A DNA stretch of 64,000 nt from an uncultured Anaerolineales bacterium (GCA_937952305.1 CALFZO010000006.1:136558-200557); one strand, 5' to 3'; numbered from the stretch's first letter, positions 39,689-59,804 are shown. Notes: generated by a model not told the origin, from the letters alone. Made by a program: numbers and translations.

Positions 39689-39694
39689 GGGCGC

Positions 39695-44537: not shown

Positions 44538-46040
44538 ATGCCCTACGAACCCGTCATCGGCCTGGAAGTCCATGCCGAGCTGCTGACCCTGTCTAAGATG
44601 TTCTGCGGCTGCGCCGTGGTCACATCCACCGCAGCGCCGCCCAACTCCGTGGTCTGCCCGGTGTGCGCGGGCCTGCCCGGCACGCTGCCGGTGATCAACG
44701 CCCGCGCCGTGGAGTTCGCGCTGCGCGTGGCCGCCGCCTTGAACTGCCGGGTGCCGCCGCTCAACGTCTTCGCGCGCAAGAATTACTTCTACCCGGACCT
44801 GCCCAAGGGCTACCAGATCTCGCAGTACGAGCTGCCCCTGGCCGTGGACGGCTGGCTGGACATCGACACGGCCGCGGGGACCCAGCGGGTGCGCATCCGG
44901 CGCGTCCATCTGGAGGAGGACACCGGCAAGCTCTTCCACGTGGACGCGCGCGACCCGGCCGGCACGCCTGGCTCCCGGGACGGCGAGCACTCGCGCGTGG
45001 ACCTCAACCGGGCCGGCGTCCCGCTGCTCGAGATCGTGTCCGAGCCGGACCTGCACTCGGCCGAGGCCGTCAAAGCCTACTGCGTGGCGCTCCGCAACCT
45101 GCTGCGCTATCTGGACGTCAACTCCGGCGACATGGAGAAGGGCGTCATCCGCTTCGAGCCGAACATCTCCGTGCGCCTGGCCGGCAGCGCCGAGCTGCGC
45201 ACCCGCACCGAACTCAAGAACCTGAACTCGTTCCGCGCCATCGAGCGCGCCACGCTTTTCGAGATCGAGCGCCAGAGCCAGGTCTGGGACAGCGGCGGCC
45301 GCGTGCTCCAGGAGACGCGCGGCTGGGACGAGGCCGCCGGCGTCACCGTGGCCCAGCGCGGCAAGGAGCACGCCCACGACTACCGCTACTTCCCCGAGCC
45401 AGACCTGCCGCCGCTGGCGATCTCGCCGGCCTGGGTCGAGGCCGTCCGCGCCGGCCTGCCGGAACTGCCCGCCGCCAAGCGCGCCCGCTTCGAGAGCGCC
45501 TACGGCCTGAGCCGCTATGACGCCGAGCTGCTGAGCGAAGACCGCGCCGTGGCCGACTACTTCGAACAGGCCGTGGCCGCCCAGCCGCCCGAGCGCCGCC
45601 ATCCGAAAGCCATCGCCAACTGGCTGACGGGCGAGCTGTTCCGGCTGATGAACGCCTCCAGCCAGATGATCGCGCAGGTAAAGGTGACGCCGGCCGACCT
45701 GGCGGCGCTGGTCGAGCTGGTGACGGCCGGCACGCTCAACGTGAACACGGCTAAGACCGTGCTCGGCGCCATGTTCACCAGCGGGCGCGCCCCGGCCGAC
45801 CTGGTGGCCGAGCAGGGCCTGGCCCAGGTGAGCGACACCGCCGCGCTGGAGACGCTGGTGGACGGCGTGCTGGCCGGCCACCCCGAACAGGTGGCCACCT
45901 ATCTGGGCGGCAAGGCGACGGTGGCGCAGTGGTTTTTCGGCCAGGTGATGAAACAGTCGCAGGGGCGCGGCAACCCCCAGGTGATCCGGCGCCTGCTGGA
46001 AGATAAGCTTGAAGCTCTGAAACGTGCGCGCGCCGCCTGA
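44538..46040 (+). CDS. gatB: Asp-tRNA(Asn)/Glu-tRNA(Gln) amidotransferase subunit B
   Basis: ATG at 44538 gives [25 protein letters not shown]..., with a GatB/YqeY C-terminus. The listed ORF starts 44 codons too early. Confidence 0.95.
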
Positions 46041-47410: not shown

Positions 47411-47440
47411 CCGCCGAACCGGCCTCGCCGGATAACGCGC

Positions 47441-47476
47441 CGTGCCCGGCCAATGGCCGGGCACGGCTTTTTCTTT
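47441..47476 (+). terminator. Canonical rho-independent terminator after gdhA
   Basis: CGTGCCCGGCC (47441-47451) pairs with GGCCGGGCACG (47455-47465), an 11-bp perfect stem with a 3-nt loop, followed by GCTTTTTCTTT. Confidence 0.85.
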
Positions 47477-47494: not shown

Positions 47495-50029
47495 TCAGCC
47501 CGCGTCCGGGGCCAGCAGCGCCACCGCCTGGCTGCGCACATCGTCCAGGATCAGCTCAAGGTGGTGCCCCGGCCGAAAATCGGCGACGTCGATCAGGCGC
47601 AGGCAGGCGGCCACCGCCGGGCTGGCCGCCACCCGGTCCAGCAGGCGGTTGGGCGTGCCGGAGAAAAAATCCTGGTTGAAGACTGACTGCGGATCGTCCA
47701 GGCAGACGGCCACCGGGTAGATCTGCGCCTCCATCAGGTCCTGAAAGAAGTGCGTGCCCAGGGACGGCTCCGGCGCCGGCCCATGGCCGCGCCCGGCCAG
47801 CTCCACCAGGGCGCCGGCGTTGTAGATGTCGGCGTAGCTCACGTACACGCCCAGCTCCGGGTTGGTGGTGCCCCAGCGGCCCGGCCCCACCAGGATGTAC
47901 GCCTTCTCGCCCAAAGTAAGGTTGAGCTGCGCGATGGCCTTGGTCAGCTCGGCGCGCCCGGCCGCCGTGGGCAGGACCGAGTAGGCCTCGGGCGCCACGT
48001 AGACCACGTGGCGGATGTGCGGCAGGTAGCCTTGCGGCACCACAAAGCGCGTAGACAGGATGACGCGCTCCGGCGCCAGGTCGCGTGGCAGGGCGGCCAC
48101 GGCCGGCAGCGGCAGCGTGCTTTGCGGCCGGCATTGCAGCAGCGTCAGCGCCACCTGCGGCCGCCCGCCGTCGGCGTCCACCACGCGCACCGTGAACTCC
48201 AGGTCCACGGCCACGTGGTAATGCTCCTCCAACACCCGCAGCATCTGGGCCAGCAGGGCCGCGAAGGAGGTCCGGCGCACCAGGCCATCGAAGGTCAGCA
48301 CCAGGCCGGGGATGTCGCCGGCCAGCAGCGTGCCGCGCGGCGTCGTGAAGAAGCCGTCCGCCTCCAGTTGCGCCAGGTAGCGCAGCGCCGGGTAGTCCGG
48401 CGTCAGGACCTCGGCCACCGGCCGGGTGACCAGCGTGTTGGCCTCCAGGTCGATCAGGTCCACCCAGTGCTGTGAGTAGAAGCGCAGAGCCTCCGGCGAG
48501 TCGTCGGGCTGGAGGGTGGGGTGGCTGAGCGCGATCAGGTGCGGGTAGTCGTTGCCGACGCGGTCGACGGCGCGCGTCCCCAGCCCCCACACCAGCCGCA
48601 CAAAGCCGGCCTCGGGCCGGATGCGCGGCGACCAGCGATACAGGTTGCGGCTGAAGGCCACGCCCGCCCCGAACGGCAGGCAATAACGCCCAAAGCGCTC
48701 GCCCTGCACCACCTGGATCAGGATGGCCATGCGCTCGTCGTAGTCTTGCAGCTTCTTGCTGCGCCGGTAGAGCAGGGCCTCCGGCTTGAGCGTGCTGGCG
48801 TACGTTTGGGCAATGGCCTGCGTCAGCGCCCGCAGGTTCTCGTCCGGCGTCCCCTGGTTGGGACAGAAGAAGCTGTCGTACTTGCCGGCGAAAGAGGTGC
48901 CGAAGTTGTCCTCTAACTGGCTGGACGAGCGCACGATCAGCGGCTGCGCGCCCACGCGCGCCAGCATCGCCTCCAGCTCGCGCACGATCTCGGGCGGGAA
49001 CCCGCCGGCCTGGAACTCGGCCTGGATCTGCGGATACTCCGCCCGGATCTGGTCCTCCGGCTTGTATTTCTGATTGTTCCAGTGCATCAGCCCGTTCATG
49101 GCCATGAACAGGTAGATCAGGTCCGAGCCCAGATAGTAGGACTCGGGCACGCGCACACTGGCGCGCACCGCCGGGTCGGCCGCCGTCTGCAGGATGCGCG
49201 CCGCCAGCCGGAGGCCGGCCGCCTTGCCGCCGATGCGGCCTTGGCCGATCCGGTGCGCGTAGATCTCGGCCAGGTCCGCCAGGGTCAGCCACTCCTTGGC
49301 CACGTTGATGTAGGCGAGTTGATCGCTGATCAGGCGCCGGATCAGGGCGACCTTGATATCGCGCCGGCAGTGCGCCAGGAACTCCTGCTCGCGCGCCGGC
49401 AGCTTCTCGATCGCTTGGGCTTGCGCGAACAGCACGCTCTCCGGGATCAGCTCCGGGTCGGAAAAAGCCAGCAGGTCCTGGACCGCCTGGTCCAGGTCAC
49501 GCGGCGTGGCGCGCTCGCCGCCGGCCCGCTGCCAGATCGGCGCCGAGTGGATCACGCGGCGATGGATCACCAGGCCGTGGCCGCGGCATTGCTGGATGTC
49601 GTCGTCATCCACCATCTGCAGATCAAGCGTAAAGCAGGCCGGGCGTGCGTTGCGGCAGCCATAGCGGCGCCGGCGCTCCGCCAGCCCCGCTTCCAGCGTC
49701 TCCCCCAGGCCGTGCAGGGCCGCGCTCTTGCGTTCCACCCACGCGATCAGGTTGATGCCGCCGCGCCGGCTGCCATCGCCCAGGCCGGCCGCGCCGTCCT
49801 CGCCGGTGCTGCGGTAGATGGCCTTGACGGTCGGGTCCAGCCGGCCGACGAGCTCGCCGACCTGCCGGACCAGGCTGTCACACAGCGCGCCGCAGACGTC
49901 GCAGCGCCCCTCGCGCAGGGCTTGCTGCGCCTGCGGGGCGTTGCCGCCGAACTTGGCCGCCGCGCAATCGGCGACGGCCTGGTCCAGCAGTTGGTCGGCC
50001 AACGCGGGGTCTAGTTCCACGGCGGACAT
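47495..50029 (-). CDS. PPDK_N (PEP/pyruvate-binding, ATP-grasp) domain protein without phosphohistidine swivel or TIM domains, paralog A
   Basis: Motifs are IGGKAAGLRLAARIL and PLIVRSSSQLEDNFGTSFAGKYDSFF, and LLQCRPQS ends the ATP-grasp. The conserved C-terminal GPGRWGTTNPELGV...EPSLGTHFFQDL region is of unknown function. ATG 50029 (AAGGGTGGG upstream) is preferred over GTG 50038. Confidence 0.8.
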   Translation of the reverse strand: MSAVELDPALADQLLDQAVADCAAAKFGGNAPQAQQALREGRCDVCGALCDSLVRQVGELVGRLDPTVKAIYRSTGEDGAAGLGDGSRRGGINLIAWVERKSAALHGLGETLEAGLAERRRRYGCRNARPACFTLDLQMVDDDDIQQCRGHGLVIHRRVIHSAPIWQRAGGERATPRDLDQAVQDLLAFSDPELIPESVLFAQAQAIEKLPAREQEFLAHCRRDIKVALIRRLISDQLAYINVAKEWLTLADLAEIYAHRIGQGRIGGKAAGLRLAARILQTAADPAVRASVRVPESYYLGSDLIYLFMAMNGLMHWNNQKYKPEDQIRAEYPQIQAEFQAGGFPPEIVRELEAMLARVGAQPLIVRSSSQLEDNFGTSFAGKYDSFFCPNQGTPDENLRALTQAIAQTYASTLKPEALLYRRSKKLQDYDERMAILIQVVQGERFGRYCLPFGAGVAFSRNLYRWSPRIRPEAGFVRLVWGLGTRAVDRVGNDYPHLIALSHPTLQPDDSPEALRFYSQHWVDLIDLEANTLVTRPVAEVLTPDYPALRYLAQLEADGFFTTPRGTLLAGDIPGLVLTFDGLVRRTSFAALLAQMLRVLEEHYHVAVDLEFTVRVVDADGGRPQVALTLLQCRPQSTLPLPAVAALPRDLAPERVILSTRFVVPQGYLPHIRHVVYVAPEAYSVLPTAAGRAELTKAIAQLNLTLGEKAYILVGPGRWGTTNPELGVYVSYADIYNAGALVELAGRGHGPAPEPSLGTHFFQDLMEAQIYPVAVCLDDPQSVFNQDFFSGTPNRLLDRVAASPAVAACLRLIDVADFRPGHHLELILDDVRSQAVALLAPDAG

Positions 50030-50068: not shown

Positions 50069-50096
50069 CGCTCAACTGAGCGCGCTCAGTTGAGCG
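50069..50096. repeat. 28-bp perfect palindrome spanning the stop codon of the GltS-FMN-like gene
   Basis: CGCTCAACTGAGCG (50069-50082) is immediately followed by CGCTCAGTTGAGCG (50083-50096). Confidence 0.9.
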
Positions 50097-51732
50097 ACGG
50101 CAGCGGCGGCTTGCGGCGCGTCTTGGGCCGCGCGCCGCGCGATCCGGACCGGCGCTCAGACGCGGTGTGCCCGTTGCCCTGGCGCCCCACCGGGGCCAGC
50201 GCCTCCCAGATGGGCAGCGGCCGCTCGTAGCCCGCCAGCTTGAGGCCGGTCAGCGCGGCCGTGTTCATGTCCAGCGCGCGCAGATCCTCGGTGGACAGGT
50301 CGGCGATGGCGCGATGGCCGGAGAGCATGGTCAGGATCTTGACCTCCTCCGCGCAGGCATGGATGAAGTTGGCCAGCTTCTGCCCGGCCGCCAGCGGGTC
50401 CAGGCGGGCGCGCAGTTCGGGCTTCTGGCTGGTGATGCCGTACGGGCAGTTGCCCTTGTGGCAGGCGTAGCAGGCGCGGCAGCCCATGGCGATCTCGGCC
50501 GCGCTGCCGAAACCAACCGCGTCGGCGCCCATGGCCAGGGCCTTGAAGGCGTCCAGGCCGTTGCGCAGGCCGCCCAGCGCGATCAGCTTGACCTGGCGGT
50601 GCACGCCATAGTCCTTCAGCGCCTGGACCGCCGGCGGGAGACAGGCGATGGTGGGGATGCCCACGCCCTGGGTGACGATGTCCGGCGAGCAGCCGGTGCC
50701 GCCCACCAGGCCGTCGATGCTGATGGCGTCGGCGCCGGCTTCGATGCAGGCGGCCACGTCCGCGTACGGGCGCGACGGCCCGAGCTTGAACAGGATCGGC
50801 ACGCGATAATCGGTGACGTCGCGCAGGAACGCCACCATGCGGCGCATGTCCTCCGGCGTCTGCACGTCATAGTAACGGCACGGGCTGAGCGCGTCCGAGC
50901 CCACCGGCACGCCGCGCACGCGTGAGACGGCCTCCGTGACCTTGGAGCCGAGCAGGTGGCCGCCCATGCCGGGTTTAGCGCCCTGGCCGATCTTGACCTC
51001 GACCGCGTCGCCGGCGTTGACGTAGTCCGCCGAGACGCCCCACCGGCCGGTGGACCACTGGATGACGAGGTAGCCGCCCGGGTCCCACTGCTTGTGGGCG
51101 CGGGCCTCATCGGCGTAACCGCGCGCCAGCCACGCCTCGGCCGGCACCAGGCCGCCCTCGCCGGTGTTGGTGGCGATGCCGGTCAGGGCCGCGCCGATGG
51201 CCAGGGCCTGCTTGGCCTCCTGGCTCAGCGCGCCGAACGACATGGCCGCCCACACAAACGGCAGCTTGAGCCGCAGCGGCTGGGAGCAAGTGTCCGCGCC
51301 GATGATCACTTCCAGGTCGCACTCCTCGCGGTACTTGTCGCGCGGCGCCGCGCTGGCGATCTGGCTGGGCACAACCGTGATCGTATCGAAGTTGGGCGTC
51401 GGGCCTTGCGTGCCAAAGCCGCGCAGCAGGTACTCGCCGGTCTGGGCTTTGGCGTGGACTTCTTCCACGGCGGCCAGCGTCCACGGGTAGCGGCTGAGAT
51501 ACTCCGACTCGGCCGGGTTGATGCGGATGGCGTCGGCCGGGCAGAACTCGGCGCAGATCCGGCAGCCCACGCAGGCGTTGTAGTTCTGGATGTGCATCGC
51601 GCCGCTGGCGAGGTCAAGCGCGTACACGCCGTGCGGGCAGACTTCGGCGCAGGTGGCGCACTTGCCCGGCATCTGCGCGTTGAGGCAGGCTTCTTGGTTA
51701 ACACTGATACAAAAGGCGCCTATGACAGCCAT
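50086..51732 (-). CDS. Glutamate-synthase FMN-domain (GltB domain 2-like) protein with N-terminal 2x[4Fe-4S] ferredoxin domain
   Basis: 548 aa with N-terminal CATCAEVCP and CVGCRICAEFCP. GltS motifs are TNTGEGG, KIGQGAKPGMGGHLLG, SIDGLVGGTGCSP, ALGGLRNGLDAFKALAMGADAVGFG and CRACYACHKGNCPYGITSQ. SD GAGGAGG precedes the start. Confidence 0.85.
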   Translation of the reverse strand: MAVIGAFCISVNQEACLNAQMPGKCATCAEVCPHGVYALDLASGAMHIQNYNACVGCRICAEFCPADAIRINPAESEYLSRYPWTLAAVEEVHAKAQTGEYLLRGFGTQGPTPNFDTITVVPSQIASAAPRDKYREECDLEVIIGADTCSQPLRLKLPFVWAAMSFGALSQEAKQALAIGAALTGIATNTGEGGLVPAEAWLARGYADEARAHKQWDPGGYLVIQWSTGRWGVSADYVNAGDAVEVKIGQGAKPGMGGHLLGSKVTEAVSRVRGVPVGSDALSPCRYYDVQTPEDMRRMVAFLRDVTDYRVPILFKLGPSRPYADVAACIEAGADAISIDGLVGGTGCSPDIVTQGVGIPTIACLPPAVQALKDYGVHRQVKLIALGGLRNGLDAFKALAMGADAVGFGSAAEIAMGCRACYACHKGNCPYGITSQKPELRARLDPLAAGQKLANFIHACAEEVKILTMLSGHRAIADLSTEDLRALDMNTAALTGLKLAGYERPLPIWEALAPVGRQGNGHTASERRSGSRGARPKTRRKPPLPSLN

Positions 51733-51742: not shown

Positions 51743-52393
51743 TCAGTTGTAGAACGGCTTGGGCGACGCGGCCACGACCTTCTGGAAGCGGGCCGGGTCG
51801 GCCGTCAGGCCGTATTGCTCGAAGTAGCCGCGCAGCTTGGCCAGGTCGGCCTCGGTCAGCGGCTCCACGCGCGTGTTGTGGCCGAGGCTCCGCCACGCGC
51901 CGCCGATGTAGACGGTGCCGCGGATCAGGTAGTTGGCGAAGTTGGCGCCGGCGTCCCCGACGATCACCAGATCACCCTTGAGCATGTAGGTGCCGGCCTC
52001 GTCGCCGACGTCGCCAGCCACCAGGATGACGGCGCCCTTGTTCATGGTCGCGGTGAAGTCGCCGGCGTCGCCGCGCACGACGACGGTGCCGCCATAGCAG
52101 TACTGGCCGGCGCCGTAGCCGGCGTCGCCGTCCACGATGACGGTGCCGGCCGTCATGTTGTCGGCCAGATACTGGCCGGCGTTGCGCTGCACGTGCAGGG
52201 TCGCCCCGGCGTTCAGCACGCCCAGGTAGTCGCCGGCGTCGCCCGCGATCTCCACCTGGCCCTGCTTCAACCCGGCCGCCAGGCCGTGCACGTGGGCGGC
52301 GTGCCTCACCGTCACCGGTTCTCCGTTCAGGGAAGCGCGCAGCGCCTGGTTGACGGCGCGCAGGTCTTTGTGTTTGGCGTCAATGGTCTTCAT
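51743..52393 (-). CDS. GXGXG-motif protein (GltB domain 3 / FwdC-like)
   Basis: 216 aa with repeated GDAG/GxGxG turns (IAGDAGDYLG, VDGDAGYGAG, VRGDAGDFTA, VAGDVGDEAG, IVGDAGANFA). SD GGGAGGTGG precedes the start. Confidence 0.85.
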   Translation of the reverse strand: MKTIDAKHKDLRAVNQALRASLNGEPVTVRHAAHVHGLAAGLKQGQVEIAGDAGDYLGVLNAGATLHVQRNAGQYLADNMTAGTVIVDGDAGYGAGQYCYGGTVVVRGDAGDFTATMNKGAVILVAGDVGDEAGTYMLKGDLVIVGDAGANFANYLIRGTVYIGGAWRSLGHNTRVEPLTEADLAKLRGYFEQYGLTADPARFQKVVAASPKPFYN

Positions 52394-52408: not shown

Positions 52409-53575
52409 TCAACAGCCCGTGCAGCCGTTGCGCGCCCGGGTTGGCGCGCCGGCTCGGCTGGGGGTGCGGTACAGGCGCGTGAACTGCTGGATGGCTTCAC
52501 CACGCTTAAGCGGGTCGGCCAGCGCATCCAGGGCCAGCACGCGCCAATCCTGGAAGGCCTCCGCCCGCGCGCGCCGGTCCTTGTCCCCGGCCGCCGCCGC
52601 CAGCGCGGCTTCGTCCACGTCCCGGCCGGTCTCCAGCAGCCCCATCTGCACCGCGTTGCGCACGAAGACGTCGCCGGCGCGGGTGCGGATAAGCAGGCTG
52701 GCCGCGTCCGCGTTGGCGTCCAGCGTCCCCAGCGCCAGGTCGGCGGATTCGCCCAGGTAGTCATCGCAGCTCGCGCAGCCGGCGCGCGTGTAGGCTTCGG
52801 CCTCCTCGCGCGGGAGGGTGCGGACGCTGCCGTCCCACAGGTGCGCGTTGAGCCAGCGCCGGTCCGGCGAGACCTCCAGCCGCTTCACCTGCTGGCGCGG
52901 CACGCCCAGGCGCTGCACCAACACGTCCTCGATCAACTCCGGGCGGTAGACGCCGGTGCAGAACAGCGCCACCGTCAGGCGCACGGCGTCCTGATACGGC
53001 TTCAGGCGCGGATTGGTGGAAGCCTTGAGCTTGCGGATGGCCTGCGCCGCGCAGGGCGGGCCGACGATGGCGATGTCCTTCAGGCCGCGCTCGAAGACGG
53101 CTTCATTCAGCGCATCCAGCACCGGCGCCCACAGATAGTGCAGGCCCACGCCCTCGGCGATCGCCTCCACCGTGGAGACGACCTCAGTTACGGGCCGCAG
53201 GTCCCACGGGTCCAGGTCCAGCCGGACGACGCCGTCCAGCAGGCCGGCGCTCAGCCCGGCCACCAGGAGGCTGCGCGCGACGTCGTTGGGCGTCCCGCCG
53301 CGCACCGGTCCGCGCGCGCGCGCCGAGACGGTCACCTGGGCCTCCAGCGGCGCCCAGCGCTCCAGGCGCGGGCAGACCGCTTCGCAGAAGTGCTGGCAGA
53401 ACGAGCAGCTGTCCAGCGGGCCTTTGGTGTAGCCGACGGTCTTCAGACGCGCCGCCAGCACGGGATGCTCGCCGCCGTTCCATTGCAGCACCTGCTTGGA
53501 GCAGGCCGCCACGCACAGGCCGCAGCCCGCGCAGCGCTCCAGCGCCCAGACCTCCTTCTCTAATCGTGTCGCCAT
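52409..53575 (-). CDS. FrhB/FdhB-family (coenzyme F420 hydrogenase/dehydrogenase beta-subunit-like) FeS flavoprotein
   Basis: ATG at 53575 with CAGGAGGTGAAAGC upstream. 388 aa with N-terminal Cys motifs CAGCGLCVAAC...CSFCQHFCEAVCP, then IAIVGPPCAAQAIRKL, LFCTGVY and CASCDDYLGESADLALG. The listed ORF 52409-53992 has a 139-codon Arg/Pro junk extension overlapping the upstream gene. Confidence 0.8.
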   Translation of the reverse strand: MATRLEKEVWALERCAGCGLCVAACSKQVLQWNGGEHPVLAARLKTVGYTKGPLDSCSFCQHFCEAVCPRLERWAPLEAQVTVSARARGPVRGGTPNDVARSLLVAGLSAGLLDGVVRLDLDPWDLRPVTEVVSTVEAIAEGVGLHYLWAPVLDALNEAVFERGLKDIAIVGPPCAAQAIRKLKASTNPRLKPYQDAVRLTVALFCTGVYRPELIEDVLVQRLGVPRQQVKRLEVSPDRRWLNAHLWDGSVRTLPREEAEAYTRAGCASCDDYLGESADLALGTLDANADAASLLIRTRAGDVFVRNAVQMGLLETGRDVDEAALAAAAGDKDRRARAEAFQDWRVLALDALADPLKRGEAIQQFTRLYRTPSRAGAPTRARNGCTGC

Positions 53576-53631: not shown

Positions 53632-55701
53632 TCACGGCCGCCGGTTGGGCGCACCCACCTCGGCCGCCAATTGGCTGGCGGCTGTGGCGAAGCCGCGCCC
53701 GTCGTCGCCGGACAGCGCCAGCCAGCGCAGCCGGCGCGGGTCGACGCCGCGTTCGGCCAGCTGGGCCTGCAACGCCTGGACGCGCTCGTGGGCGAAGCGG
53801 TTGCCCTGGCCGTGATGACATTCGCCGGCCGGGCAGGCCGCCACCAGCACGCCGGCGGCGCCGTTGAGGAACGCCCAGAGCACGTGGTCGCCGCTGAGGC
53901 GGGCCGAACAGCCCAGGCGGATCAGGCGGGTGCTGGCCGGGTACGGCCAGCCGCGCGCCCCGGCAATACCGGCGGCGGCGTCGCCGCTCCACTCGCAGCC
54001 GAAGACCACGACGCGCGGCGCTCCCTCGGCCGTCGCCAGGGCGGCCTCAATCTGCGCGAAGAGCGCGGCGTCCTCGGCGCCGGGCAGCGTCAGCGCGCGC
54101 ACCGGGCAGGCGGCCACGCAGCTGCCGCAGCCCGTGCAGCGGCGCCCGTCCACGCGCACGAGTGAGAGCGGCCCCGGCTGGGCGCTCAGGCTGAGCGCGG
54201 CCTGCGGGCAGGCCTGAACGCATTGCGCGCAGCCCGTGCATAGCGCCTCGTCCAAGGCGGGGATGGGCGCGTCCAATTGCAGGCGGCCCTGGCCGAGGTA
54301 GCGCAGGACGCGCGCGCCGGTGAGATAAGCCTGGAACTCGACTTCGGACACGCTGGCCGGCTGATGCAGGCCGCCCAGCACGAACAGGCCGTCGTCGGCG
54401 TAGCGGCCGGGGCGCAGGCGGAAGCGCCGCTCGATGAGAAAGCCGTCGGCGTCCCGCGGCAGGCCCAGCACGGCGGCCAGCCGGTCCGCGCCCGCCGCCG
54501 GCACCCACGGCAGCGCCAGCACCAATCGGTCGAAGGGCAGCTCGATCAGGTCGCGCGTGGCCGGCAGCGGCACGCTCACCGTCCGCGCGTCGATCACGGG
54601 CGGATGCGCCGGGTCGTAACGCACGAAGGCGACTCCGGCCGCCTGGGCGGCGGCCAGGTCTTGCCAGCCGGCCTCGGCGTCCTCGCCAAGCACCAGGTCC
54701 CGGAACAGCAGCGTCACCTCCGTCGCCGGGTTGAGCTCTTTCACGCGCGCGGCCTGGCGCAGACCGGCGCGGCAGCACACGCGTGAGCAGCGGCCGCCTG
54801 GCCCACGCTCGGCGCACAACTGGATGACGACGTGCTGAAACGGGCAGCCGCCCGCCTCGGCCAGGGCCGCCAGCTCCATCTCAAATTCGGCCTGGGTCCG
54901 GACGCGGGCGCGGGGATACCAGCGGGTGGCGCCCAGCGGCTGCGGCGCGGCGCCCAGCGCGGCCACGATCGCGCCGGCCGGCGTCACCGCCTGGACACCG
55001 GCCTGCTCCCAGGTCACCTGGTATTCGCCGGGCGCGCCGGCGACGGCGATGACCTGGGCGTTGAGCCGGGTCGTGATGAGCGGATGGGCGCGAACGGCCG
55101 CGATGCGGGCCGCGATCTGGTCCTGATCGGCGGCCTCGAAGCTGGGCGAGAGCCCTCCCAGGGCGCCGTCCGGGTCGATCACGGTGACGGGCGTCCCGCC
55201 CTCGGCCAGCGTCAGCGCCACGGTGAGGGCGCCCAGCCCGCCGCCGATGACGACGGCCGCCTTCGTCAGCGGATACGTGCGCGGCGCCGCCGGCGTCAGG
55301 GCCGCCAGACGCGCCGCGCCCATGGCGATCAGGTCGACGGCCTTGGCCTGCGCGGCCTCCGGCTCAGCGGCATGCACGCACGCGCATTGTTCGCGCACGT
55401 CCGCGATGGCGACGGCGTCGGCCGGCAAACCAGCCGCCTGGACCGTGGCGCGGAAGAGCGGCTCCACCAGGCGCGGCGCACAGGCGGCCACCAGCACGCG
55501 GTCCAGGTGCTCGGCCTGGATGGCGGCCTGCAGACGCGCGCGGCCATCCGGCCCGCAGGCGCAGGTCTCGCACGTCACGTGGGCGACGCCAGGCAGATCA
55601 GCGGCGGCGCGCGCCAGCCTCTCCGGCTCCAGCGGCCTCGGCCGGCCGAGCGTGCCGCCGCAATCACAGACGACGATCCCCAGGCGCGGTGAGTCGCTCA
55701 T
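53632..55701 (-). CDS. HdrA-like FAD/FeS protein with C-terminally fused MvhD (methyl-viologen-reducing hydrogenase delta) domain
   Basis: The ATG at 55701 overlaps the upstream stop (ATGA). 689 aa. The HdrA N-domain pattern reads GIVVCDCGG...VLVAACAPRLVEPLF...IADVREQCACVH. FAD fold AAVVIGGGLGALTVALTLAEGG, CSRVCC and the ferredoxin pair CTGCAQCVQACP / CTGCGSCVAACP follow. The MvhD pattern is VVVFGCEWSGD...RLGCSARL...VLVAACPAGECHHGQGN. Confidence 0.8.
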   Translation of the reverse strand: MSDSPRLGIVVCDCGGTLGRPRPLEPERLARAAADLPGVAHVTCETCACGPDGRARLQAAIQAEHLDRVLVAACAPRLVEPLFRATVQAAGLPADAVAIADVREQCACVHAAEPEAAQAKAVDLIAMGAARLAALTPAAPRTYPLTKAAVVIGGGLGALTVALTLAEGGTPVTVIDPDGALGGLSPSFEAADQDQIAARIAAVRAHPLITTRLNAQVIAVAGAPGEYQVTWEQAGVQAVTPAGAIVAALGAAPQPLGATRWYPRARVRTQAEFEMELAALAEAGGCPFQHVVIQLCAERGPGGRCSRVCCRAGLRQAARVKELNPATEVTLLFRDLVLGEDAEAGWQDLAAAQAAGVAFVRYDPAHPPVIDARTVSVPLPATRDLIELPFDRLVLALPWVPAAGADRLAAVLGLPRDADGFLIERRFRLRPGRYADDGLFVLGGLHQPASVSEVEFQAYLTGARVLRYLGQGRLQLDAPIPALDEALCTGCAQCVQACPQAALSLSAQPGPLSLVRVDGRRCTGCGSCVAACPVRALTLPGAEDAALFAQIEAALATAEGAPRVVVFGCEWSGDAAAGIAGARGWPYPASTRLIRLGCSARLSGDHVLWAFLNGAAGVLVAACPAGECHHGQGNRFAHERVQALQAQLAERGVDPRRLRWLALSGDDGRGFATAASQLAAEVGAPNRRP

Positions 55702-56435
55702 CGGGCCTTCTCTTTCTGCGCGGCCGAGGCCGCCGCCGGAGCCAACACCGCCGGCACATCCGCCATGCCGCGCGGCGTCAGGTCCTGGTCGCCGCAGGCC
55801 TGGCAATACTGGCGCGCCTCGTCGGCGCCGGTGTGGAGGCTGCGGAAGCCGGCGACATCGGCCAGGGTCAGGTGGCCGGTAGGGCAGATCAGCACGCACG
55901 TGCCGCAGCCGATACAGGCCGAGGCCGCCGGCTCATCGAAGGGCGGGCTGACCCGTTTGGCCAGGCCGCGCCGGGTGAGGCTGATGGCGCCGACGCCCAC
56001 GATCTCGCGGCAGGCGCGCACGCACAGGCCGCACACCACGCAGGTGTCGGCCTCCGGGCGCCGGTAGCGCGGCGCCTCCACGCCCAAGCTGCGCGCCAGC
56101 GCCTGGATCTCGGGCGAGGTGTATGCACCGGCGAGCAGGAGTTCGGCCGTGATCCGGCGGCTGCGCTGCACCAGGTCTGAGTGCGTGCACACCACCAACC
56201 CCGGCTCACACGGATACGCGCAGGCGGCGGCCAGGCGCGCCGGGCGCGGGCGCCGATCGCCCGGCGGCGGCGGCGCGCTCACCTCCACCACGCACAGCCG
56301 GCAGGCGCCGTAGGGCTTCAACGCCGGATGGTGGCACAGGGTCGGCACGGCGATGCCATGCTCACGGCACGCTTCCAGGAGCGTGCGCCCCTCGGCCACC
56401 TCCACGCTGCGGTCGTCGATCGTCAACTGGATCAT
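55698..56435 (-). CDS. NuoG/HydA N-terminal-like ferredoxin: [2Fe-2S] plus 2x[4Fe-4S], no catalytic domain
   Basis: 245 aa. Fer2_4-like MIQLTIDDRSVEVAEGRTLLEACREHGIAVPTLCHHP...GACRLCVVEV is followed by CVVCGLCVRAC and CIGCGTCVLICP. Confidence 0.8.
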   Translation of the reverse strand: MIQLTIDDRSVEVAEGRTLLEACREHGIAVPTLCHHPALKPYGACRLCVVEVSAPPPPGDRRPRPARLAAACAYPCEPGLVVCTHSDLVQRSRRITAELLLAGAYTSPEIQALARSLGVEAPRYRRPEADTCVVCGLCVRACREIVGVGAISLTRRGLAKRVSPPFDEPAASACIGCGTCVLICPTGHLTLADVAGFRSLHTGADEARQYCQACGDQDLTPRGMADVPAVLAPAAASAAQKEKAR

Positions 56436-56444
56436 GGCGGGGCC

Positions 56445-58346
56445 TCAATTGACCGTGACCGCGTCGAACTTGCACACGCTCTGGCACAGGCCGCAGCGCG
56501 TGCAGACCGCCGGGTCGATGGTGTGGATCTGCTGCTTAGCGCCGTGGATGGCGCCGGCCGGGCAGTTGCGCAGGCAGACCTGACAACCCGAGCACCGCTC
56601 CGGCTGGATGGCGTACGTGATCAGGCCTTTGCAGACCTTGGCCGGGCAGCGCTTGTGCAAGATGTGCGCGTCATACTCGGCGCGGAAGTAACGCAGGGTC
56701 GAGAGGACCGGATTAGGCGCGGTCTGGCCCAGGCCGCACAGCGACGAGCGCTTGATCATCTCGCCCAGCTCCAGCAGGTAATCCACGTCGCCGGGCTGCC
56801 CGTGGCCGGCGCAGATGCGCTCCAGCGTCGCCAGCATGGCCTGTGTGCCCACGCGGCAGGGCACGCACTTGCCGCACGACTCCTCCTGCGTGAACTGCAT
56901 GAAGTAGCGGGCGAAGTCCACCATGCAGGTGTCCTCGTCCGCCACCACCAGGCCGCCCGAGCCGACGATGGCGCCGAGCGCGGTCAGCGATTCATAGTCG
57001 ATGGACGTGTCCAGGTGCTCGGCCGGGATACAGCCGCCGGACGGCCCGCCGATCTGGGCGGCCTTGAAGGCCTTGCCGCCGGGGATGCCGCCGCCGATGT
57101 CGAAGATCAGGCGGCGCAGCGAGATGCCCAGCGGCACCTCCACCAGGCCGGTGTTGTTGATCTTGCCGACCACCGAGAAGATCAGCGTGCCCTTGCTGGT
57201 GGGCGTGCCCAACTGCGCGTACCAGTCCGCGCCGTTGGCCAGGATGAGCGGCACCGCCGCCCAACTCTTGACATTGTTGATGTTGGTCGGTTTGCCCCAC
57301 AGGCCGGCCTCGGCCGGATAAGGCGGGCGCGGGCGCGGCTCGCCCACGCGGCCTTCGATGGACGCCATCAGCGCGGTCTCCTCGCCGCAGACAAAAGCGC
57401 CGCTGCCCAGCCGCACGCTGACCCGAAAATCGAAGCCGGAGCCCAGGATGTTCTCGCCCAACAGGCCGCGCGCCTCGGCCTGGGCGATGGCGGCGCGCAG
57501 GTGCTTGACGGCCAGCGGGTATTCGTTGCGGATGTAGACGAAGCCGCGCCGCGCCCCGATGGCGTACGCGCCGATCAGCATCCCCTCCAGCACGCGGTGG
57601 GGGTTGCCCTCCATGATCGAGCGGTCCATGTAGGCGCCCGGGTCGCCCTCGTCCGCGTTGCAGATCACGTACTTCACGTCGCCGGGCTGACGCCGGCACA
57701 GGTCCCACTTCTGCCCGGTGGGGAAGCCGGCGCCGCCGCGCCCGCGCAGCCCGGAGGCCTTGACTTCGGCGATGACGGCCGCGGGCGTCAGGGCCAGCGC
57801 CTTGGCCAGCGCGGCGTAGCCGCCGGCGGCCACGTAGTCGGCCAGGCTGAGCGGATCGAGCGTGCCGTTCAGGTCCAGCACCAGGCGGTGCTGATGTTTA
57901 TAGAACGGGACCTCGGTCTCATACGGCAGCCGGGCGCCGGACTGCGGCTCGGTGTACAGCAGGCGGTCGAGCACGCGGCCGCCGTCCACAGTGGCCGCCG
58001 CGATCTCGGCGGCATCCTCCGGCTTGACGCGCGTGTACATCAAGCGCTGCGGATGGAGCACCACCAGCGGCCCGCGCTCACAGAACCCGTGGCAGCCGGT
58101 GACGCGCACCGGGCGCCCGTCGCCGCGCGCCGCCAGCTCACGCTGCAGCGCCTGGCAGACGCGCTCGCTGCCGTAGACGCGGCAGCCGGTGCCGCCGCAG
58201 ACCGTGATGGCCGGCTGGTTGGGCTGATCCGCGGCGGTCAGGGCCGCACGCCAATCCGCCAGATCGGCAAGCTGGTGCAGCTGTGGATCGCGGCCATTGG
58301 CCGGCGCTGGCGCGGCTTCCAGCGGGGAGGGCGGGGTCTTAAGCAT
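56445..58346 (-). CDS. NuoF/HydB-like NADH-binding FMN FeS flavoprotein with extra N-terminal thioredoxin-like [2Fe-2S] and C-terminal 2x[4Fe-4S] domains
   Basis: 633 aa with GLRGRGGAGFPTGQKW, NADEGDPGAYMDR and ESCGKCVPCRVG. The N-terminus carries VCGGTGC...CHGFCERGP. The C-terminus carries CSGCQVCLRNCP and CTRCGLCQSVC. Confidence 0.9.
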   Translation of the reverse strand: MLKTPPSPLEAAPAPANGRDPQLHQLADLADWRAALTAADQPNQPAITVCGGTGCRVYGSERVCQALQRELAARGDGRPVRVTGCHGFCERGPLVVLHPQRLMYTRVKPEDAAEIAAATVDGGRVLDRLLYTEPQSGARLPYETEVPFYKHQHRLVLDLNGTLDPLSLADYVAAGGYAALAKALALTPAAVIAEVKASGLRGRGGAGFPTGQKWDLCRRQPGDVKYVICNADEGDPGAYMDRSIMEGNPHRVLEGMLIGAYAIGARRGFVYIRNEYPLAVKHLRAAIAQAEARGLLGENILGSGFDFRVSVRLGSGAFVCGEETALMASIEGRVGEPRPRPPYPAEAGLWGKPTNINNVKSWAAVPLILANGADWYAQLGTPTSKGTLIFSVVGKINNTGLVEVPLGISLRRLIFDIGGGIPGGKAFKAAQIGGPSGGCIPAEHLDTSIDYESLTALGAIVGSGGLVVADEDTCMVDFARYFMQFTQEESCGKCVPCRVGTQAMLATLERICAGHGQPGDVDYLLELGEMIKRSSLCGLGQTAPNPVLSTLRYFRAEYDAHILHKRCPAKVCKGLITYAIQPERCSGCQVCLRNCPAGAIHGAKQQIHTIDPAVCTRCGLCQSVCKFDAVTVN

Positions 58347-58884
58347 GCTGCGCCTCCGCCGCCTGGCGCGTCAGGCGCTTCCAGAGCATTTCGGCCTTGG
58401 GCGCCGTCATCTGCCCGGAGTACTCGCCGTCGGCGACGACGATGGGGCCGAGCGCACAGGCGCCCAGGCAGTTGACGGTCTCGAGCGTGAACTCGCGGTC
58501 GCGCGTGGTGGCGCCGGGGCTGACCCCCAGCCGCGTCGCCAGCCGCTCCAGCACCCGCGGGCTGCCGCGCACGTGGCAGGCCGTGCCCATGCACACCTGC
58601 AGGCAGTGCCGGCCTTTTGGCTTGAGGCTGAAGGCGTTATAGAACGTGGCGACGGCGTAGACGTCGGCGAGCGGGAGGTGGAAGCGCTCGCCGGCCAGGA
58701 TCAGGGCCGCGCGCGGCAGGTAGCGGCAGCGCGCCTGAACCGCCTCCAGCGCGGCGATGACCGAGCCTTCGCCGCGCGCTTCCTGGTCGATGAGCTGGTA
58801 GAGGTCGCCGACCGGCAATAGCATAGCGGGCTGCTCCAGGGGCGACAGCGCCGCGCCGTCGACGCGTCCGGCCAGCCGGTTCAA
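58339..58884 (-). CDS. NuoE/HydC-like thioredoxin-fold [2Fe-2S] protein
   Basis: VATFYNAFSLKPKGRHCLQVCMGTACHVRG...VNCLGACALGP. The start is ambiguous (TTG 58884 or ATG 58824). The stop overlaps the NuoF-like start by 8 nt. Confidence 0.85.
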   Translation of the reverse strand: MNRLAGRVDGAALSPLEQPAMLLPVGDLYQLIDQEARGEGSVIAALEAVQARCRYLPRAALILAGERFHLPLADVYAVATFYNAFSLKPKGRHCLQVCMGTACHVRGSPRVLERLATRLGVSPGATTRDREFTLETVNCLGACALGPIVVADGEYSGQMTAPKAEMLWKRLTRQAAEAQHA

Positions 58885-59077: not shown

Positions 59078-59785
<708 letters not shown>

Positions 59786-59804
59786 ACGCCCTCCCGCCTG
59801 TGCC

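What the first reader, a model, noticed from the sequence alone, without database searches (positions are those of the whole stretch)
53632..55701. Divergent HdrA: MvhD fused in cis, only one ferredoxin-type Cys pair, FAD-proximal Cys motif not visible
The following are seen in the sequence:
- The HdrA N-domain pattern is present (GIVVCDCGG, VAACAPRL, VREQCACVH).
- The FAD GxGxxG motif and CSRVCC are present.
- One CxxCxxCxxxCP pair is present (CTGCAQCVQACP / CTGCGSCVAACP).
- A full MvhD-like domain occupies roughly 53707-54018.

Between the FAD fold and CSRVCC I find no second ferredoxin insert. The position where methanogen HdrA carries a Cys-containing motif shortly after the FAD fold reads LGGLSPSFEAADQDQ. 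In the Mvh-Hdr structure, as I recall it, the inserted ferredoxin domain lies on the low-potential branch. Its absence, together with the cis-fused MvhD, would imply different wiring from canonical HdrA. It also leaves open whether this flavin bifurcates at all.
Basis: partly seen in the sequence, partly recalled or inferred. Interest (0 to 1): 0.6.

Follow-up and report, generated by a model that had tools for sequence, protein, structure and literature searches.

The report
HdrA–MvhD hub of glutamate-synthase operon
The gene is a real, conserved, trimmed-down relative of the methanogen flavoprotein HdrA with MvhD fused on; in Anaerolineae it sits not with a heterodisulfide reductase but in a conserved operon between an NADH/ferredoxin module and a split glutamate synthase, an enzyme combination I could not find described.

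Summary
Window 53632-55701 (-) encodes a 689-aa HdrA-family protein. It has:
- an N-terminal 4-Cys domain;
- an FAD/thioredoxin-reductase domain carrying the C…CSxVCC cluster;
- one C-terminal 2x[4Fe-4S] domain;
- a fused MvhD domain (Pfam FlpD, E 1e-30).

The inserted ferredoxin domain (M. thermolithotrophicus residues ~241-319) and the Cys194/Cys197 motif are absent. They are absent in all 84 aligned relatives, so this is a clade trait, not decay.

Each missing or added feature is already known in other HdrA relatives (HdrA2 'type Ia', QmoB, ANME paralogues, sHdrA). The protein alone is therefore a new member of a known kind.

The context is the interesting part. In 7 independent loci, at 35-60% HdrA identity and including cultured Longilinea arvoryzae, the gene is fourth in a tight operon:
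1. NuoE-like
2. NuoF-like of the electron-bifurcating 'BfuB' type
3. short BfuA
4. HdrA-MvhD
5. FrhB-like
6. GXGXG
7. glutamate-synthase FMN subunit

There is no HdrBC. I read HdrA-MvhD as the electron hub between a Bfu-type NADH/ferredoxin module and an FrhB-type glutamate synthase, with its own low-potential exit lost. Whether its FAD bifurcates remains open. Eight full-text literature searches found no description of this operon.

The parts
53632..55701 (-). HdrA-MvhD fusion gene (689 aa + stop); the finding itself
   Evidence: ORF, RBS, ATGA overlap. (Pfam FlpD, Fer4, Pyr_redox_2). (PDB HdrA, E 1e-62 to 1e-65). (AF2, pLDDT 90.5, pTM 0.87). (Foldseek top hits are all HdrA chains, E ~1e-41).
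55297..55701 (-). N-terminal (MvhD-like) domain, aa 1-135, with four conserved Cys (12, 14, 49, 74); predicted [4Fe-4S]
   Evidence: These Cys align to Mt Cys11/13/46/71 and are conserved in 82-84 of 84 relatives. Cys106 is conserved in only 43%.
54292..55296 (-). FAD/thioredoxin-reductase-like domain, aa 136-470. Dinucleotide motif at aa 150-156. [4Fe-4S] ligands Cys296, 305, 309, 310. E274 (= Mt E356) and R315 (= Mt K409).
55120..55131 (-). Position equivalent to the Cys194-x-x-Cys197 motif of methanogen HdrA; here A-D-Q-D (aa 191-194), no Cys
   Evidence: The family has R/D/S/A and Q/E/R/A at these two columns.
54997..55011 (-). Approximate junction (aa ~231-235) where the inserted 2x[4Fe-4S] ferredoxin domain of methanogen HdrA (Mt 241-319) is missing
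   Evidence: The gap is present in all 84 family members.
54034..54291 (-). C-terminal ferredoxin domain, aa 471-556, two CxxCxxCxxxCP motifs (Cys488-498, Cys522-532); 2x[4Fe-4S]
   Evidence: Cys 96-100% conserved.
53635..54033 (-). Fused MvhD (FlpD) domain, aa 557-689, Cys569, 598, 623, 628; predicted [2Fe-2S]
   Evidence: PF02662, E 1.1e-30. (MvhD/VhuD chains). (four Cys 99-100% conserved).
58339..58824 (-). NuoE/HoxE/BfuC-like [2Fe-2S] subunit (161 aa); first gene of the operon
56445..58346 (-). NuoF-like FMN subunit of the BfuB/HydB type (633 aa): N-terminal thioredoxin-like [2Fe-2S], FMN, [4Fe-4S], C-terminal 2x[4Fe-4S]
   Evidence: best PDB hit is 7t2r_B (bifurcating NiFe-HydABCSL subunit B), E 3e-248 over the full length, followed by HydB and NfnB-Bfu. 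Complex I Nqo1 matches the core only. (Cys motifs).
55698..56435 (-). Short BfuA/HoxU/NuoG-N-terminal-like subunit (245 aa): one [2Fe-2S] and two CxxCxxCxxxC motifs
   Evidence: (best hit 9mqx_A, a 247-aa NuoG-like protein, E 1e-39).
52409..53575 (-). FrhB/FpoF/Fsr-N-like flavoprotein (388 aa): N-terminal 2x[4Fe-4S] plus FrhB_N/FrhB_C (FAD, [4Fe-4S]; possible F420 site)
   Evidence: more than 120 clusters, nearly all of 388 aa, at 64-80% identity.
51743..52393 (-). GXGXG beta-helix protein (216 aa), homologous to the C-terminal domain of the glutamate synthase large subunit and to FwdC
50086..51732 (-). Glutamate-synthase FMN-domain subunit (548 aa) with N-terminal 2x[4Fe-4S] and a CxxCxxCxxxxC cluster motif
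   Evidence: PF01645, E 4e-105. (aligns to GltS large chains, residues ~845-1197)..
47495..50029 (-). PPDK_N (ATP-grasp/PEP-synthase N-domain) protein, 844 aa, 56 nt downstream of the GltS gene. Possibly the last gene of the operon; role unknown.
   Evidence: full-length homologue in L005 and L006; short partial matches in L001 and L007. (no terminator-like site before it; strong hairpin after it at 47439-47467).
59078..61121 (-). GAF-HisKA-HATPase sensor kinase (59805-61121) and OmpR-type response regulator (59078-59785) directly upstream. Conserved with the operon.

Best explanation
**What it is.** The gene encodes a functional HdrA-family iron-sulfur flavoprotein of an Anaerolineae/Chloroflexota clade. 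Predicted cofactors are FAD, four [4Fe-4S] clusters and one [2Fe-2S] cluster.

**What it is not.** It is not a heterodisulfide reductase subunit. It is the fourth product of a conserved operon: NuoE/BfuC, NuoF/BfuB, short BfuA, HdrA-MvhD, FrhB-like, GXGXG, glutamate-synthase FMN subunit.

**Proposed role.** It most likely acts as the electron hub of one multi-flavin complex. That complex joins a Bfu-type NAD(H)/ferredoxin module to an FrhB-type ('FGltS-like') split glutamate synthase.

**Proposed flow (inferred, not shown)**
1. NADH is oxidised at the BfuB FMN.
2. [quoted passage not shown]
3. They reach the HdrA FAD.
4. They leave through the thioredoxin-reductase-domain [4Fe-4S].
5. They enter the 2x[4Fe-4S] domains of the FrhB-like and GltS subunits, which stand where HdrC stands in methanogens.
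6. They reach the GltS FMN, which reduces 2-iminoglutarate to glutamate.

**Energetics.** The 2-oxoglutarate/glutamate couple lies near the potential of the CoM-S-S-CoB couple it replaces.

**Ferredoxin coupling.** This clade lacks HdrA's own low-potential exit (inserted ferredoxin domain and Cys194/197). I therefore expect any ferredoxin coupling to use the C-terminal ferredoxin domain of BfuB. The N-terminal HdrA cluster would act as a gate or relay.

**Net reaction I think most likely:** 2 NADH + Fd(ox) + 2-oxoglutarate + NH3 (or Gln) -> 2 NAD+ + Fd(red) + glutamate, reversible.

**Unresolved.** The docking topology is open: Bfu at MvhD with FrhB/GltS at the HdrC site, or the reverse. The direction of the reaction is also open.
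For: **Shown**
- Domain and ligand map of HdrA-MvhD, conserved across 84 relatives.
- Confident AF2 model (pLDDT 90.5, pTM 0.87). Its best structural matches are all HdrA chains, TM up to 0.70.
- Flavin-site E356 is kept. K409 is conservatively Arg.
- Operon order is conserved in 7 independent loci at 35-60% HdrA identity, including Longilinea arvoryzae.
- Gene spacing is -8 to +56 nt, with an ATGA overlap between BfuA and HdrA.
- No HdrB/HdrC/CCG-domain gene occurs within 10 kb in any locus.
- The NuoF-like subunit is of the bifurcating BfuB/HydB type over its full length. The BfuA-like subunit carries three clusters, as described for Bfu clade 45 (PMC9304861).
- An HdrA module combined with BfuABC has a precedent in Bam-Bfu (PMC9304861).
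- An FrhB-like subunit with two extra N-terminal clusters next to GltS subunits matches the putative FGltS(I) of methanogens (PMC3448663).
- The GltS FMN domain matches strongly and keeps its cluster motif.
- A related HdrA without insert and without MvhD (P0298) also follows NuoF-like and BfuA-like genes.

**From established knowledge**
- E0' of CoM-S-S-CoB is -140 mV, NADH -320 mV, Fd -420 mV (PMC5861303).
- The 2-oxoglutarate+NH4+/glutamate couple is about -0.12 to -0.14 V (my own knowledge).
Against: - No protein-protein contact, cofactor or activity was tested. The complex is inferred from synteny alone.
- No glutamine-amidotransferase (GATase_2) gene lies in or near the operon. A classical Gln-dependent GOGAT reaction is therefore not assured.
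- HdrA-MvhD is the least conserved subunit (60/52/45/36% against 86/75/69/63% for BfuB). That would fit a mere wire or scaffold.
- A BfuBC core could do ferredoxin coupling without any HdrA, so the need for HdrA is unexplained.
- In solved methanogen complexes, FrhB-family input modules (FdhAB) dock at the MvhD/VhuD side (PMC13518236). That would invert my proposed topology.
- The same contig encodes an F420-dependent LLM oxidoreductase scoring above cut-off. F420 may therefore be a real substrate of the FrhB-like subunit.
Confidence: 0.55

Rival explanations
1. The HdrA FAD is itself the bifurcating flavin. [quoted passage not shown] The high-potential electron goes via the thioredoxin-reductase-domain cluster to FrhB/GltS. 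The low-potential electron leaves through the N-terminal-domain [4Fe-4S] directly to ferredoxin or to BfuB, without an inserted ferredoxin domain.
For: - The N-terminal domain and its four Cys are retained in 82-84 of 84 relatives.
- E356 is kept and K409 is conservatively Arg.
- The N-terminal cluster lies on the low-potential route in methanogen HdrA (PMC9012536; PMC13518236).
- The 2-oxoglutarate/glutamate potential is close to that of the heterodisulfide.
Against: - The Cys194/197 element, which either ligates that cluster or relays between FAD and it over ~33 A, is absent in the whole clade (PMC13518236).
- No second HdrA-like gene is present to supply it, unlike the tandem arrangement seen for P0383.
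- Combined with a confurcating Bfu core, the net ferredoxin balance would be zero.
Confidence: 0.2
2. The complex is F420-linked. The FrhB-like subunit exchanges hydride with F420. The Bfu plus HdrA-MvhD part then acts as an NADH/ferredoxin:F420 oxidoreductase (as proposed for 'F420-Bfu', or like HdrA2B2C2 using F420H2). It feeds an F420H2-dependent glutamate synthase.
For: - The FrhB-like protein matches FrhB, FpoF and Fsr-N.
- It is the kind of subunit assigned to putative FGltS(I) (PMC3448663).
- The window encodes a TIGR03617 F420-dependent LLM oxidoreductase, 437 bits against a cut-off of 278.
- The best NCBIfam model for the HdrA is the F420H2-using HdrA2.
- The FrhB-like subunit is strongly conserved, with nearly all relatives 388 aa long and 64-80% identical.
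Against: - F420-binding residues were not examined.
- No F420 biosynthesis genes were seen in the window.
- Every NCBIfam FrhB/FpoF score is far below cut-off.
- FrhB-family proteins also occur as F420-independent modules (my own knowledge).
Confidence: 0.15
3. HdrA-MvhD is only a non-bifurcating wire or scaffold, and the whole assembly is a plain NADH-dependent glutamate synthase with no ferredoxin coupling.
For: - It is the least conserved subunit.
- The low-potential branch is lost.
- sHdrA of Hyphomicrobium shows that HdrA-like proteins can be reduced forms (6tjr hit).
Against: - The NuoF-like subunit keeps all extra clusters that mark bifurcating BfuB/HydB enzymes and that non-bifurcating NuoF/Nqo1 lack (PMC9304861).
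- Four flavins and ~19 clusters is an extravagant apparatus for a reaction that GltBD does with two subunits.
Confidence: 0.12
4. It is a subunit of a conventional heterodisulfide (or DsrC-type disulfide) reductase whose HdrBC partners are encoded elsewhere. The neighbouring genes are separate enzymes.
For: The HdrA fold and the cluster that contacts HdrC are conserved.
Against: - No HdrB/C/D gene lies within 10 kb in 7 loci.
- The same seven genes stay together in the same order down to 35% HdrA identity, with overlapping or near-abutting reading frames.
Confidence: 0.04

Closest known systems
Methanogen HdrA of MvhADG-HdrABC / Fdh-Hdr-Fmd / Elp-Hdr complexes (PDB 5ODC, 7BKB, 8RVU)
   Same: - Best sequence and fold match.
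- N-terminal 4-Cys domain, FAD domain with the C…CSxVCC cluster, and C-terminal 2x[4Fe-4S] domain.
- E356 conserved.
   Different: - No inserted ferredoxin domain and no Cys194/Cys197.
- K409 is Arg.
- MvhD is fused.
- No HdrBC partner.
- Only ~25% identity.
HdrA2 of Methanosarcina acetivorans HdrA2B2C2 ('type Ia' HdrA, MvhD-fused)
   Same: - C-terminal MvhD fusion.
- Best NCBIfam model (NF040770, E 4e-115).
- Fusion class described in PMC12054007.
   Different: - Score of 385 bits against a cut-off of 1100, so it is not an equivalog.
- HdrA2 works with HdrB2C2 on CoM-S-S-CoB.
- The window protein lacks the insert (model residues ~240-395 are unmatched).
QmoB of sulfate reducers (QmoABC)
   Same: HdrA-like flavoprotein with a C-terminal MvhD-like domain and no HdrB partner (PMC3333476). 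A 28%-identical same-length archaeal relative (P0383) sits in a QmoA/QmoB-like tandem.
   Different: - No QmoA-like second HdrA, no QmoC and no aprAB nearby.
Bam-Bfu (class II benzoyl-CoA reductase BamB-I) and the Bfu family (HydABC-like)
   Same: A BfuABC-type NuoEFG-like module is combined with an HdrA-type module in one gene cluster (PMC9304861). The BfuB here is full-length homologous to solved bifurcating BfuB/HydB.
   Different: - The terminal module is FrhB plus split glutamate synthase, not a tungsten benzoyl-CoA reductase.
- No HdrBC/D-like BamCD.
- MvhD is fused rather than separate.
- This third-substrate type is not among those listed in that paper.
[quoted passage not shown]
   Same: An FrhB homologue with two extra N-terminal [4Fe-4S] clusters is encoded next to glutamate synthase subunits (PMC3448663).
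   Different: - Bacterial.
- Embedded behind Bfu and HdrA-MvhD genes.
- F420 use is untested.
- FGltS itself has never been purified (PMC3087415).

Membership tests
HdrA family (FAD/FeS subunit of soluble heterodisulfide reductase and relatives) | Thioredoxin-reductase-like FAD domain carrying the C-x(n)-CSxVCC [4Fe-4S] site | tested here: met
   Cys296/305/309/310 align to Mt Cys386/399/403/404 and are conserved in 81-82 of 84 relatives. The fold matches HdrA chains at E ~1e-41.
HdrA family (FAD/FeS subunit of soluble heterodisulfide reductase and relatives) | N-terminal MvhD-like domain with conserved Cys for a [4Fe-4S] cluster | tested here: met
   Cys12/14/49/74 = Mt Cys11/13/46/71.
Canonical methanogen-type (bifurcating) HdrA | Inserted 2x[4Fe-4S] ferredoxin domain (Mt ~237-313) forming the low-potential exit | tested here: not met
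   Absent in the query and in all 84 relatives.
Canonical methanogen-type (bifurcating) HdrA | Cys194-x-x-Cys(Sec)197 motif next to the FAD fold | tested here: not met
   A191/D194 in the query. No conserved Cys in the family.
Canonical methanogen-type (bifurcating) HdrA | Flavin-site residues E356 and K409 | tested here: inconclusive
   E274 aligns with E356 (E in 63/84). R315 aligns with K409 (R 62, Q 15, K 3 of 84). The charge is conserved in most relatives, but the effect on flavin potentials is unknown.
Canonical methanogen-type (bifurcating) HdrA | Genomic or physical association with HdrB and HdrC (CCG-domain disulfide reductase) | tested here: not met
   No such gene within 10 kb in 7 loci.
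NCBIfam equivalogs HdrA2 (NF040770) / HdrA (NF041778, NF041891) | Whole-protein score above the curated cut-off | tested here: not met
   385, 221 and 211 bits against cut-offs of 1100, 1400 and 1300.
MvhD / FlpD (PF02662) | Profile match above the gathering score and four conserved Cys for the [2Fe-2S] cluster | tested here: met
   106.5 bits against 22.3, covering aa 564-682. Cys569/598/623/628 are 99-100% conserved. MvhD/VhuD PDB chains match.
Bfu family (BfuABC/HydABC-type bifurcating core), for the operon | NuoF-like BfuB with extra N-terminal [2Fe-2S] and C-terminal 2x[4Fe-4S], plus NuoE-like BfuC and BfuA | tested here: met
   (full-length match to 7t2r_B, 8a6t_B, 7q4v_B, 9n5u_B).
Bfu family (BfuABC/HydABC-type bifurcating core), for the operon | Electron-bifurcating activity with NAD(H), ferredoxin and a third substrate | not testable with these tools
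   Needs enzyme assays.
FGltS(I)-type / archaeal split glutamate synthase, for the downstream genes | FrhB homologue with two N-terminal [4Fe-4S] clusters adjacent to the GltS FMN-domain and GXGXG subunits | tested here: met
   definition in PMC3448663.
FGltS(I)-type / archaeal split glutamate synthase, for the downstream genes | Glutamine amidotransferase (GATase_2) subunit | tested here: not met
   None was found among the operon genes or within 10 kb in the loci examined. One could be encoded elsewhere in the genome.
QmoB | Co-occurrence with QmoA, QmoC and aprAB | tested here: not met
   None in the window ORFs scanned or in related loci.

The most novel reading that the evidence does not exclude
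The operon encodes a previously undescribed seven-subunit, four-flavin, ~19-cluster enzyme that couples the 2-oxoglutarate/glutamate couple to NAD(H) and ferredoxin. It would be an electron-bifurcating glutamate synthase or, in reverse, a confurcating glutamate oxidase. A trimmed HdrA-MvhD would link a Bfu flavobicluster core to an FrhB-type glutamate synthase. Nitrogen assimilation or amino-acid fermentation in Anaerolineae, which are abundant in anaerobic digesters, would then be directly energy-coupled. HdrA would be shown to serve a non-disulfide terminal reaction.
Probability: 0.3. Interest if true: 0.8.

Novelty: new variant of a known kind. Interest (0 to 1): 0.55.

Why it matters
HdrA is one of only four known kinds of electron-bifurcating module. 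Which parts of it are needed for bifurcation is still debated, for example the role of Cys/Sec197 and of the mobile N-terminal domain.

This clade is a natural deletion experiment:
- it has lost both the inserted ferredoxin domain and the Cys194/197 element;
- it keeps everything else;
- it is wired to a different terminal enzyme and to a second, Bfu-type, bifurcation-capable module.

If the complex is real, it would:
- extend the Bfu and HdrA families to amino-acid and nitrogen metabolism;
- give the long-hypothesised FrhB-type glutamate synthase a bacterial, culturable test case (Longilinea arvoryzae);
- bear on the energy budget of Anaerolineae, which are common in anaerobic digesters.

If the HdrA is only a wire, the finding is a modest addition to the known diversity of HdrA architectures.

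Tried and rejected
- **Longer GTG start (55899).** Rejected. It overlaps the BfuA-like gene, and homologues start at the ATG.
- **The missing insert or Cys motif is an assembly or decay artefact.** Rejected. The identical protein occurs on independent ENA and JGI contigs, and the features are fixed in 84 relatives.
- **Genome-contig scan with the single protein.** It found only one true relative (L001) plus one spurious ferredoxin hit (L002). Context had to come from the look-up of encoding contigs instead.
- **AFDB50 fold search.** Not available, so I could not test whether annotated QmoB or HdrA2 models are the closest full-length folds.
- **Model coordinates.** Cys-Cys and cluster-FAD distances in the AF2 model could not be measured, and no multimer prediction was possible.
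- **Multiple alignment with long double-HdrA proteins** (P0088-P0119). Only partly interpretable, because fused or permuted HdrA units confuse the columns. I used it only to note that insert-less and Cys197-less HdrA units are common.
- **Appel et al. 2021 review of HdrA modules.** Not held. It may already list this architecture.
- **Literature searches for the operon.** Searches found nothing. Searches gave background only.
- **Second protein-database search (FrhB-like).** It returned only the same tight family among the 120 listed and no outgroups, so it did not place the subunit relative to archaeal FGltS alpha.


Full report
**1. The observation**

The region 53632-55899 (-) is one open frame. 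The gene starts at the ATG at 55701. That ATG is preceded by GAAAGAGAAGG and overlaps the TGA of the upstream gene as ATGA. The product is 689 aa. Gene callers on two independent public contigs chose the same product: ENA ERZ936873 (bioreactor sludge) and JGI 3300006417. The window is ~70% G+C, and third-position G+C supports this frame.

Pfam finds FlpD/MvhD at aa 564-682 (E 1.1e-30), a 2x[4Fe-4S] domain at aa 483-538, and a pyridine-nucleotide-disulfide-oxidoreductase N-terminal segment at aa 149-257.

Against all PDB sequences, the best matches are the HdrA chains of solved Mvh-Hdr, Elp-Hdr and Fdh-Hdr-Fmd complexes (E 1e-52 to 1e-65). They align in two blocks, which leaves ~70 query residues opposite ~160 HdrA residues. 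Separate MvhD/VhuD chains match aa 559-682.

**2. Mapping onto the structurally characterised HdrA**

I rebuilt the M. thermolithotrophicus HdrA sequence (5ODC_A, residues 1-650) from HMMER alignments. The numbering reproduces the published E356 and K409. I then aligned it with the query and 83 relatives.

| Feature in Mt HdrA | Query | Family (84 sequences) |
|---|---|---|
| Residues 241-319 (inserted ferredoxin domain, 8 Cys) | absent | absent in all |
| Cys194 / Cys197 | A191 / D194 | mostly R and Q/E |
| N-domain Cys11/13/46/71 | Cys12/14/49/74 | 82-84 conserved |
| FAD-domain cluster Cys386/399/403/404 | Cys296/305/309/310 | 81-82 conserved |
| E356 | E274 | E in 63 |
| K409 | R315 | R 62, Q 15, K 3 |

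Both C-terminal CxxCxxCxxxCP motifs and the four MvhD Cys (569, 598, 623, 628) are essentially invariant.

The predicted cofactor set is therefore FAD, four [4Fe-4S] clusters and one [2Fe-2S] cluster. Canonical HdrA has six [4Fe-4S] clusters.

An AlphaFold2 model built on an 80-sequence alignment is confident (mean pLDDT 90.5, pTM 0.87). Its top Foldseek hits in the PDB are exclusively HdrA chains (E ~1e-41; TM 0.69-0.70 to 8rvy_A and 7bkd_A). The reduced sHdrA of Hyphomicrobium comes next. Conservation is even across the domains, and none looks degenerate.

**3. What the missing pieces mean**

[quoted passage not shown] They leave the FAD by two routes (PMC9012536; PMC13518236):
  - through the thioredoxin-reductase-domain cluster to HdrC/HdrB (high potential);
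  - through the N-terminal cluster and the inserted ferredoxin domain to ferredoxin (low potential).
- Cys197 is described as a ligand of the partner protomer's N-terminal cluster (PMC9012536). Alternatively, as a Cys/Sec197 pair, it is a possible relay between FAD and that cluster (PMC13518236).
- The clade here keeps the entry route and the high-potential exit. It has lost the end of the low-potential route.
- None of these traits is unprecedented:
  - MvhD fusion defines 'type Ia' HdrA/HdrA2 (PMC12054007) and occurs in QmoB (PMC3333476).
  - Domain and Cys197 losses are catalogued in ANME paralogues (PMC9012536).
- A search of 1.84 billion cluster representatives shows many same-length single-block relatives at 28-48% identity. 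It also shows ~555-aa versions without MvhD.

**4. The neighbourhood**

The gene is the fourth of seven closely spaced genes on the minus strand:

| # | Coordinates | Product |
|---|---|---|
| 1 | 58339-58824 | NuoE-like |
| 2 | 56445-58346 | NuoF-like |
| 3 | 55698-56435 | [2Fe-2S] + 2x[4Fe-4S] HoxU/NuoG-N-terminal-like |
| 4 | 53632-55701 | HdrA-MvhD |
| 5 | 52409-53575 | 2x[4Fe-4S] + FrhB-like |
| 6 | 51743-52393 | GXGXG domain protein |
| 7 | 50086-51732 | 2x[4Fe-4S] + glutamate-synthase FMN domain |

- Spacings run from -8 to +56 nt.
- A GAF sensor kinase and an OmpR-type regulator lie upstream. A PPDK_N-domain protein lies 56 nt downstream.
- No terminator-like site interrupts the operon. 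A strong hairpin follows the PPDK_N gene.
- The same order recurs in seven independent loci:
  - the window's own contig;
  - P0002 (60% HdrA identity);
  - P0004 (52%);
  - L001, an Anaerolineae MAG (52%);
  - Longilinea arvoryzae (45%);
  - P0086 (36%);
  - P0257 (35%).
- None of these loci has an HdrB/HdrC gene within 10 kb.

**5. The partners**

- **NuoF-like subunit.** It matches, over its full length, the BfuB/HydB subunits of solved electron-bifurcating enzymes: 7t2r_B (E 3e-248), then 8a6t_B, 7q4v_B, 9n5u_B and 7p5h_B. Complex I Nqo1/NuoF matches only the core. Its sequence shows the extra N-terminal [2Fe-2S] and C-terminal 2x[4Fe-4S] motifs. These are the features that define the Bfu family (PMC9304861).
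- **BfuA-like subunit.** It has three clusters, as described for Bfu clade 45. That clade includes Bam-Bfu, the one known case of a BfuABC module combined with an HdrA module.
- **FrhB-like subunit.**
  - It resembles FrhB, FpoF and Fsr-N.
  - It is very strongly conserved, at 64-80% identity in more than 120 clusters, nearly all 388 aa long.
- **GltS subunit.** It aligns to residues ~845-1197 of solved glutamate synthases. It carries a four-Cys version of the cluster motif.
- **No amidotransferase.** No glutamine amidotransferase gene is present.
- **Relative conservation.** Across loci, HdrA-MvhD is always the least conserved subunit.

**6. Mechanism**

I propose that the seven proteins form one complex in which HdrA-MvhD is the hub. 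The high-potential exit of HdrA feeds the ferredoxin-like domains of FrhB/GltS in place of HdrC. The terminal reaction is reduction of 2-iminoglutarate, or its reverse. Its potential (~-0.13 V, my own knowledge) is close to that of CoM-S-S-CoB (-140 mV, PMC5861303).

The clade lacks HdrA's own ferredoxin exit, while BfuB keeps the ferredoxin-interacting domain. I therefore expect ferredoxin coupling to occur at the Bfu core. The net reaction would be 2 NADH + Fd(ox) + 2-oxoglutarate + NH3 -> 2 NAD+ + Fd(red) + Glu, or the reverse in amino-acid fermentation.

What is shown:
- domain content;
- ligand conservation;
- synteny.

What is inferred:
- the complex itself;
- the order of modules;
- the direction and the stoichiometry.

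The topology could be inverted. FrhB-family input modules (FdhAB) dock on the MvhD/VhuD side in methanogens (PMC13518236). F420 may also be a substrate, because the same contig encodes a TIGR03617 F420-dependent oxidoreductase scoring above cut-off.

A tandem arrangement, with Bfu confurcation followed by HdrA bifurcation, would cancel out in ferredoxin. This is one reason I do not favour a canonical bifurcating role for this FAD.

**7. Comparison and novelty**

The protein is a member of the HdrA superfamily, but not of the canonical bifurcating heterodisulfide-reductase HdrA. Four tested features are not met:
- the inserted ferredoxin domain;
- Cys194/197;
- an HdrBC partner;
- the NCBIfam cut-offs.

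On its own it is a new member of a known range of architectures. The operon is a new variant of the Bfu/HdrA construction kit, namely Bfu core plus HdrA-MvhD plus FrhB-type split glutamate synthase.

I could not find this operon in 8 full-text searches, nor in the Bfu family survey.

**8. Verdict**

- The main value lies in the conserved context.
- Interest is 0.55.

Noticed in passing
L001 2661-6014 (Anaerolineae bacterium HOT.MB2.62, JAIMBM010000017.1): In this relative's copy of the operon, the NuoF/BfuB homologue is a 1117-aa ORF. Its C-terminal 2x[4Fe-4S] domain is replaced by a GltD/NfnB-like module (Fer4_20 + Pyr_redox_2). GltD is the natural electron-donor subunit of glutamate synthase. 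This strengthens the link to GltS and suggests an NAD(P)H site in that lineage.
   Followed up: partly
window 47495-50029 (-) and 61337-63676 (+): Two large paralogous proteins (844 and 779 aa) flank the operon. Their only recognisable domain is PPDK_N (the ATP-grasp domain of PEP synthase). A full-length homologue of the downstream one follows the GltS gene in L005 and L006, with short partial matches in L001 and L007. Function unknown.
   Followed up: partly
window 23031-24122 (+): TIGR03617-family F420-dependent luciferase-like oxidoreductase, 437 bits against a cut-off of 278. This suggests the organism uses coenzyme F420, which bears on the FrhB-like subunit.
   Followed up: partly
window 53632-58824 compared with L001, L005-L008: Within the operon, HdrA-MvhD is consistently the fastest-evolving subunit (60/52/45/36% identity). 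BfuB, GltS and GXGXG stay at 58-86%. The FrhB-like subunit is 388 aa in nearly all of more than 120 clusters.
   Followed up: yes
window 59078-61121 (-): A GAF-domain histidine kinase and an OmpR-type response regulator are conserved immediately upstream of the operon in six of the seven loci, including the 35%-identity locus L010. The signal is unknown.
   Followed up: partly
window 50086-51732 (-), aa ~416-430: The GltS FMN subunit has CxxCxxCxxxxC (four Cys). Fd- and NADPH-dependent glutamate synthases carry the three-Cys [3Fe-4S] motif at this site, so this could be a [4Fe-4S] cluster instead (motif comparison from my own knowledge).
   Followed up: no
window 46121-47410 (+) and 47439-47467: A glutamate dehydrogenase gene converges on the operon end. 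A perfect 13-bp G+C-rich hairpin with a T-tail lies between the two. GDH is also adjacent in the 60%-identity locus L005.
   Followed up: no
window 39620-46040 (+): gatC and gatA are separated from gatB by a nucleotidyl-transferase gene and a class I/II aminotransferase gene.
   Followed up: no
L012 and L013: More distant insert-less HdrA relatives occur in two other contexts.
- L012: a 555-aa form without MvhD directly follows NuoF-like and BfuA-like genes.
- L013: a 706-aa MvhD-fused form on an archaeal contig follows a 445-aa second HdrA-like gene, a QmoA/QmoB-like tandem.

   Followed up: partly
window 15737-17053 (+); 29233-32730 (+); 36260-39619 (+): - A Ser/Thr protein kinase fused to a LuxR-type HTH.
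- A 1165-aa protein with three lamin-tail domains.
- A 1119-aa protein with CBM_4_9 domains.

These are unrelated to the finding.
   Followed up: no
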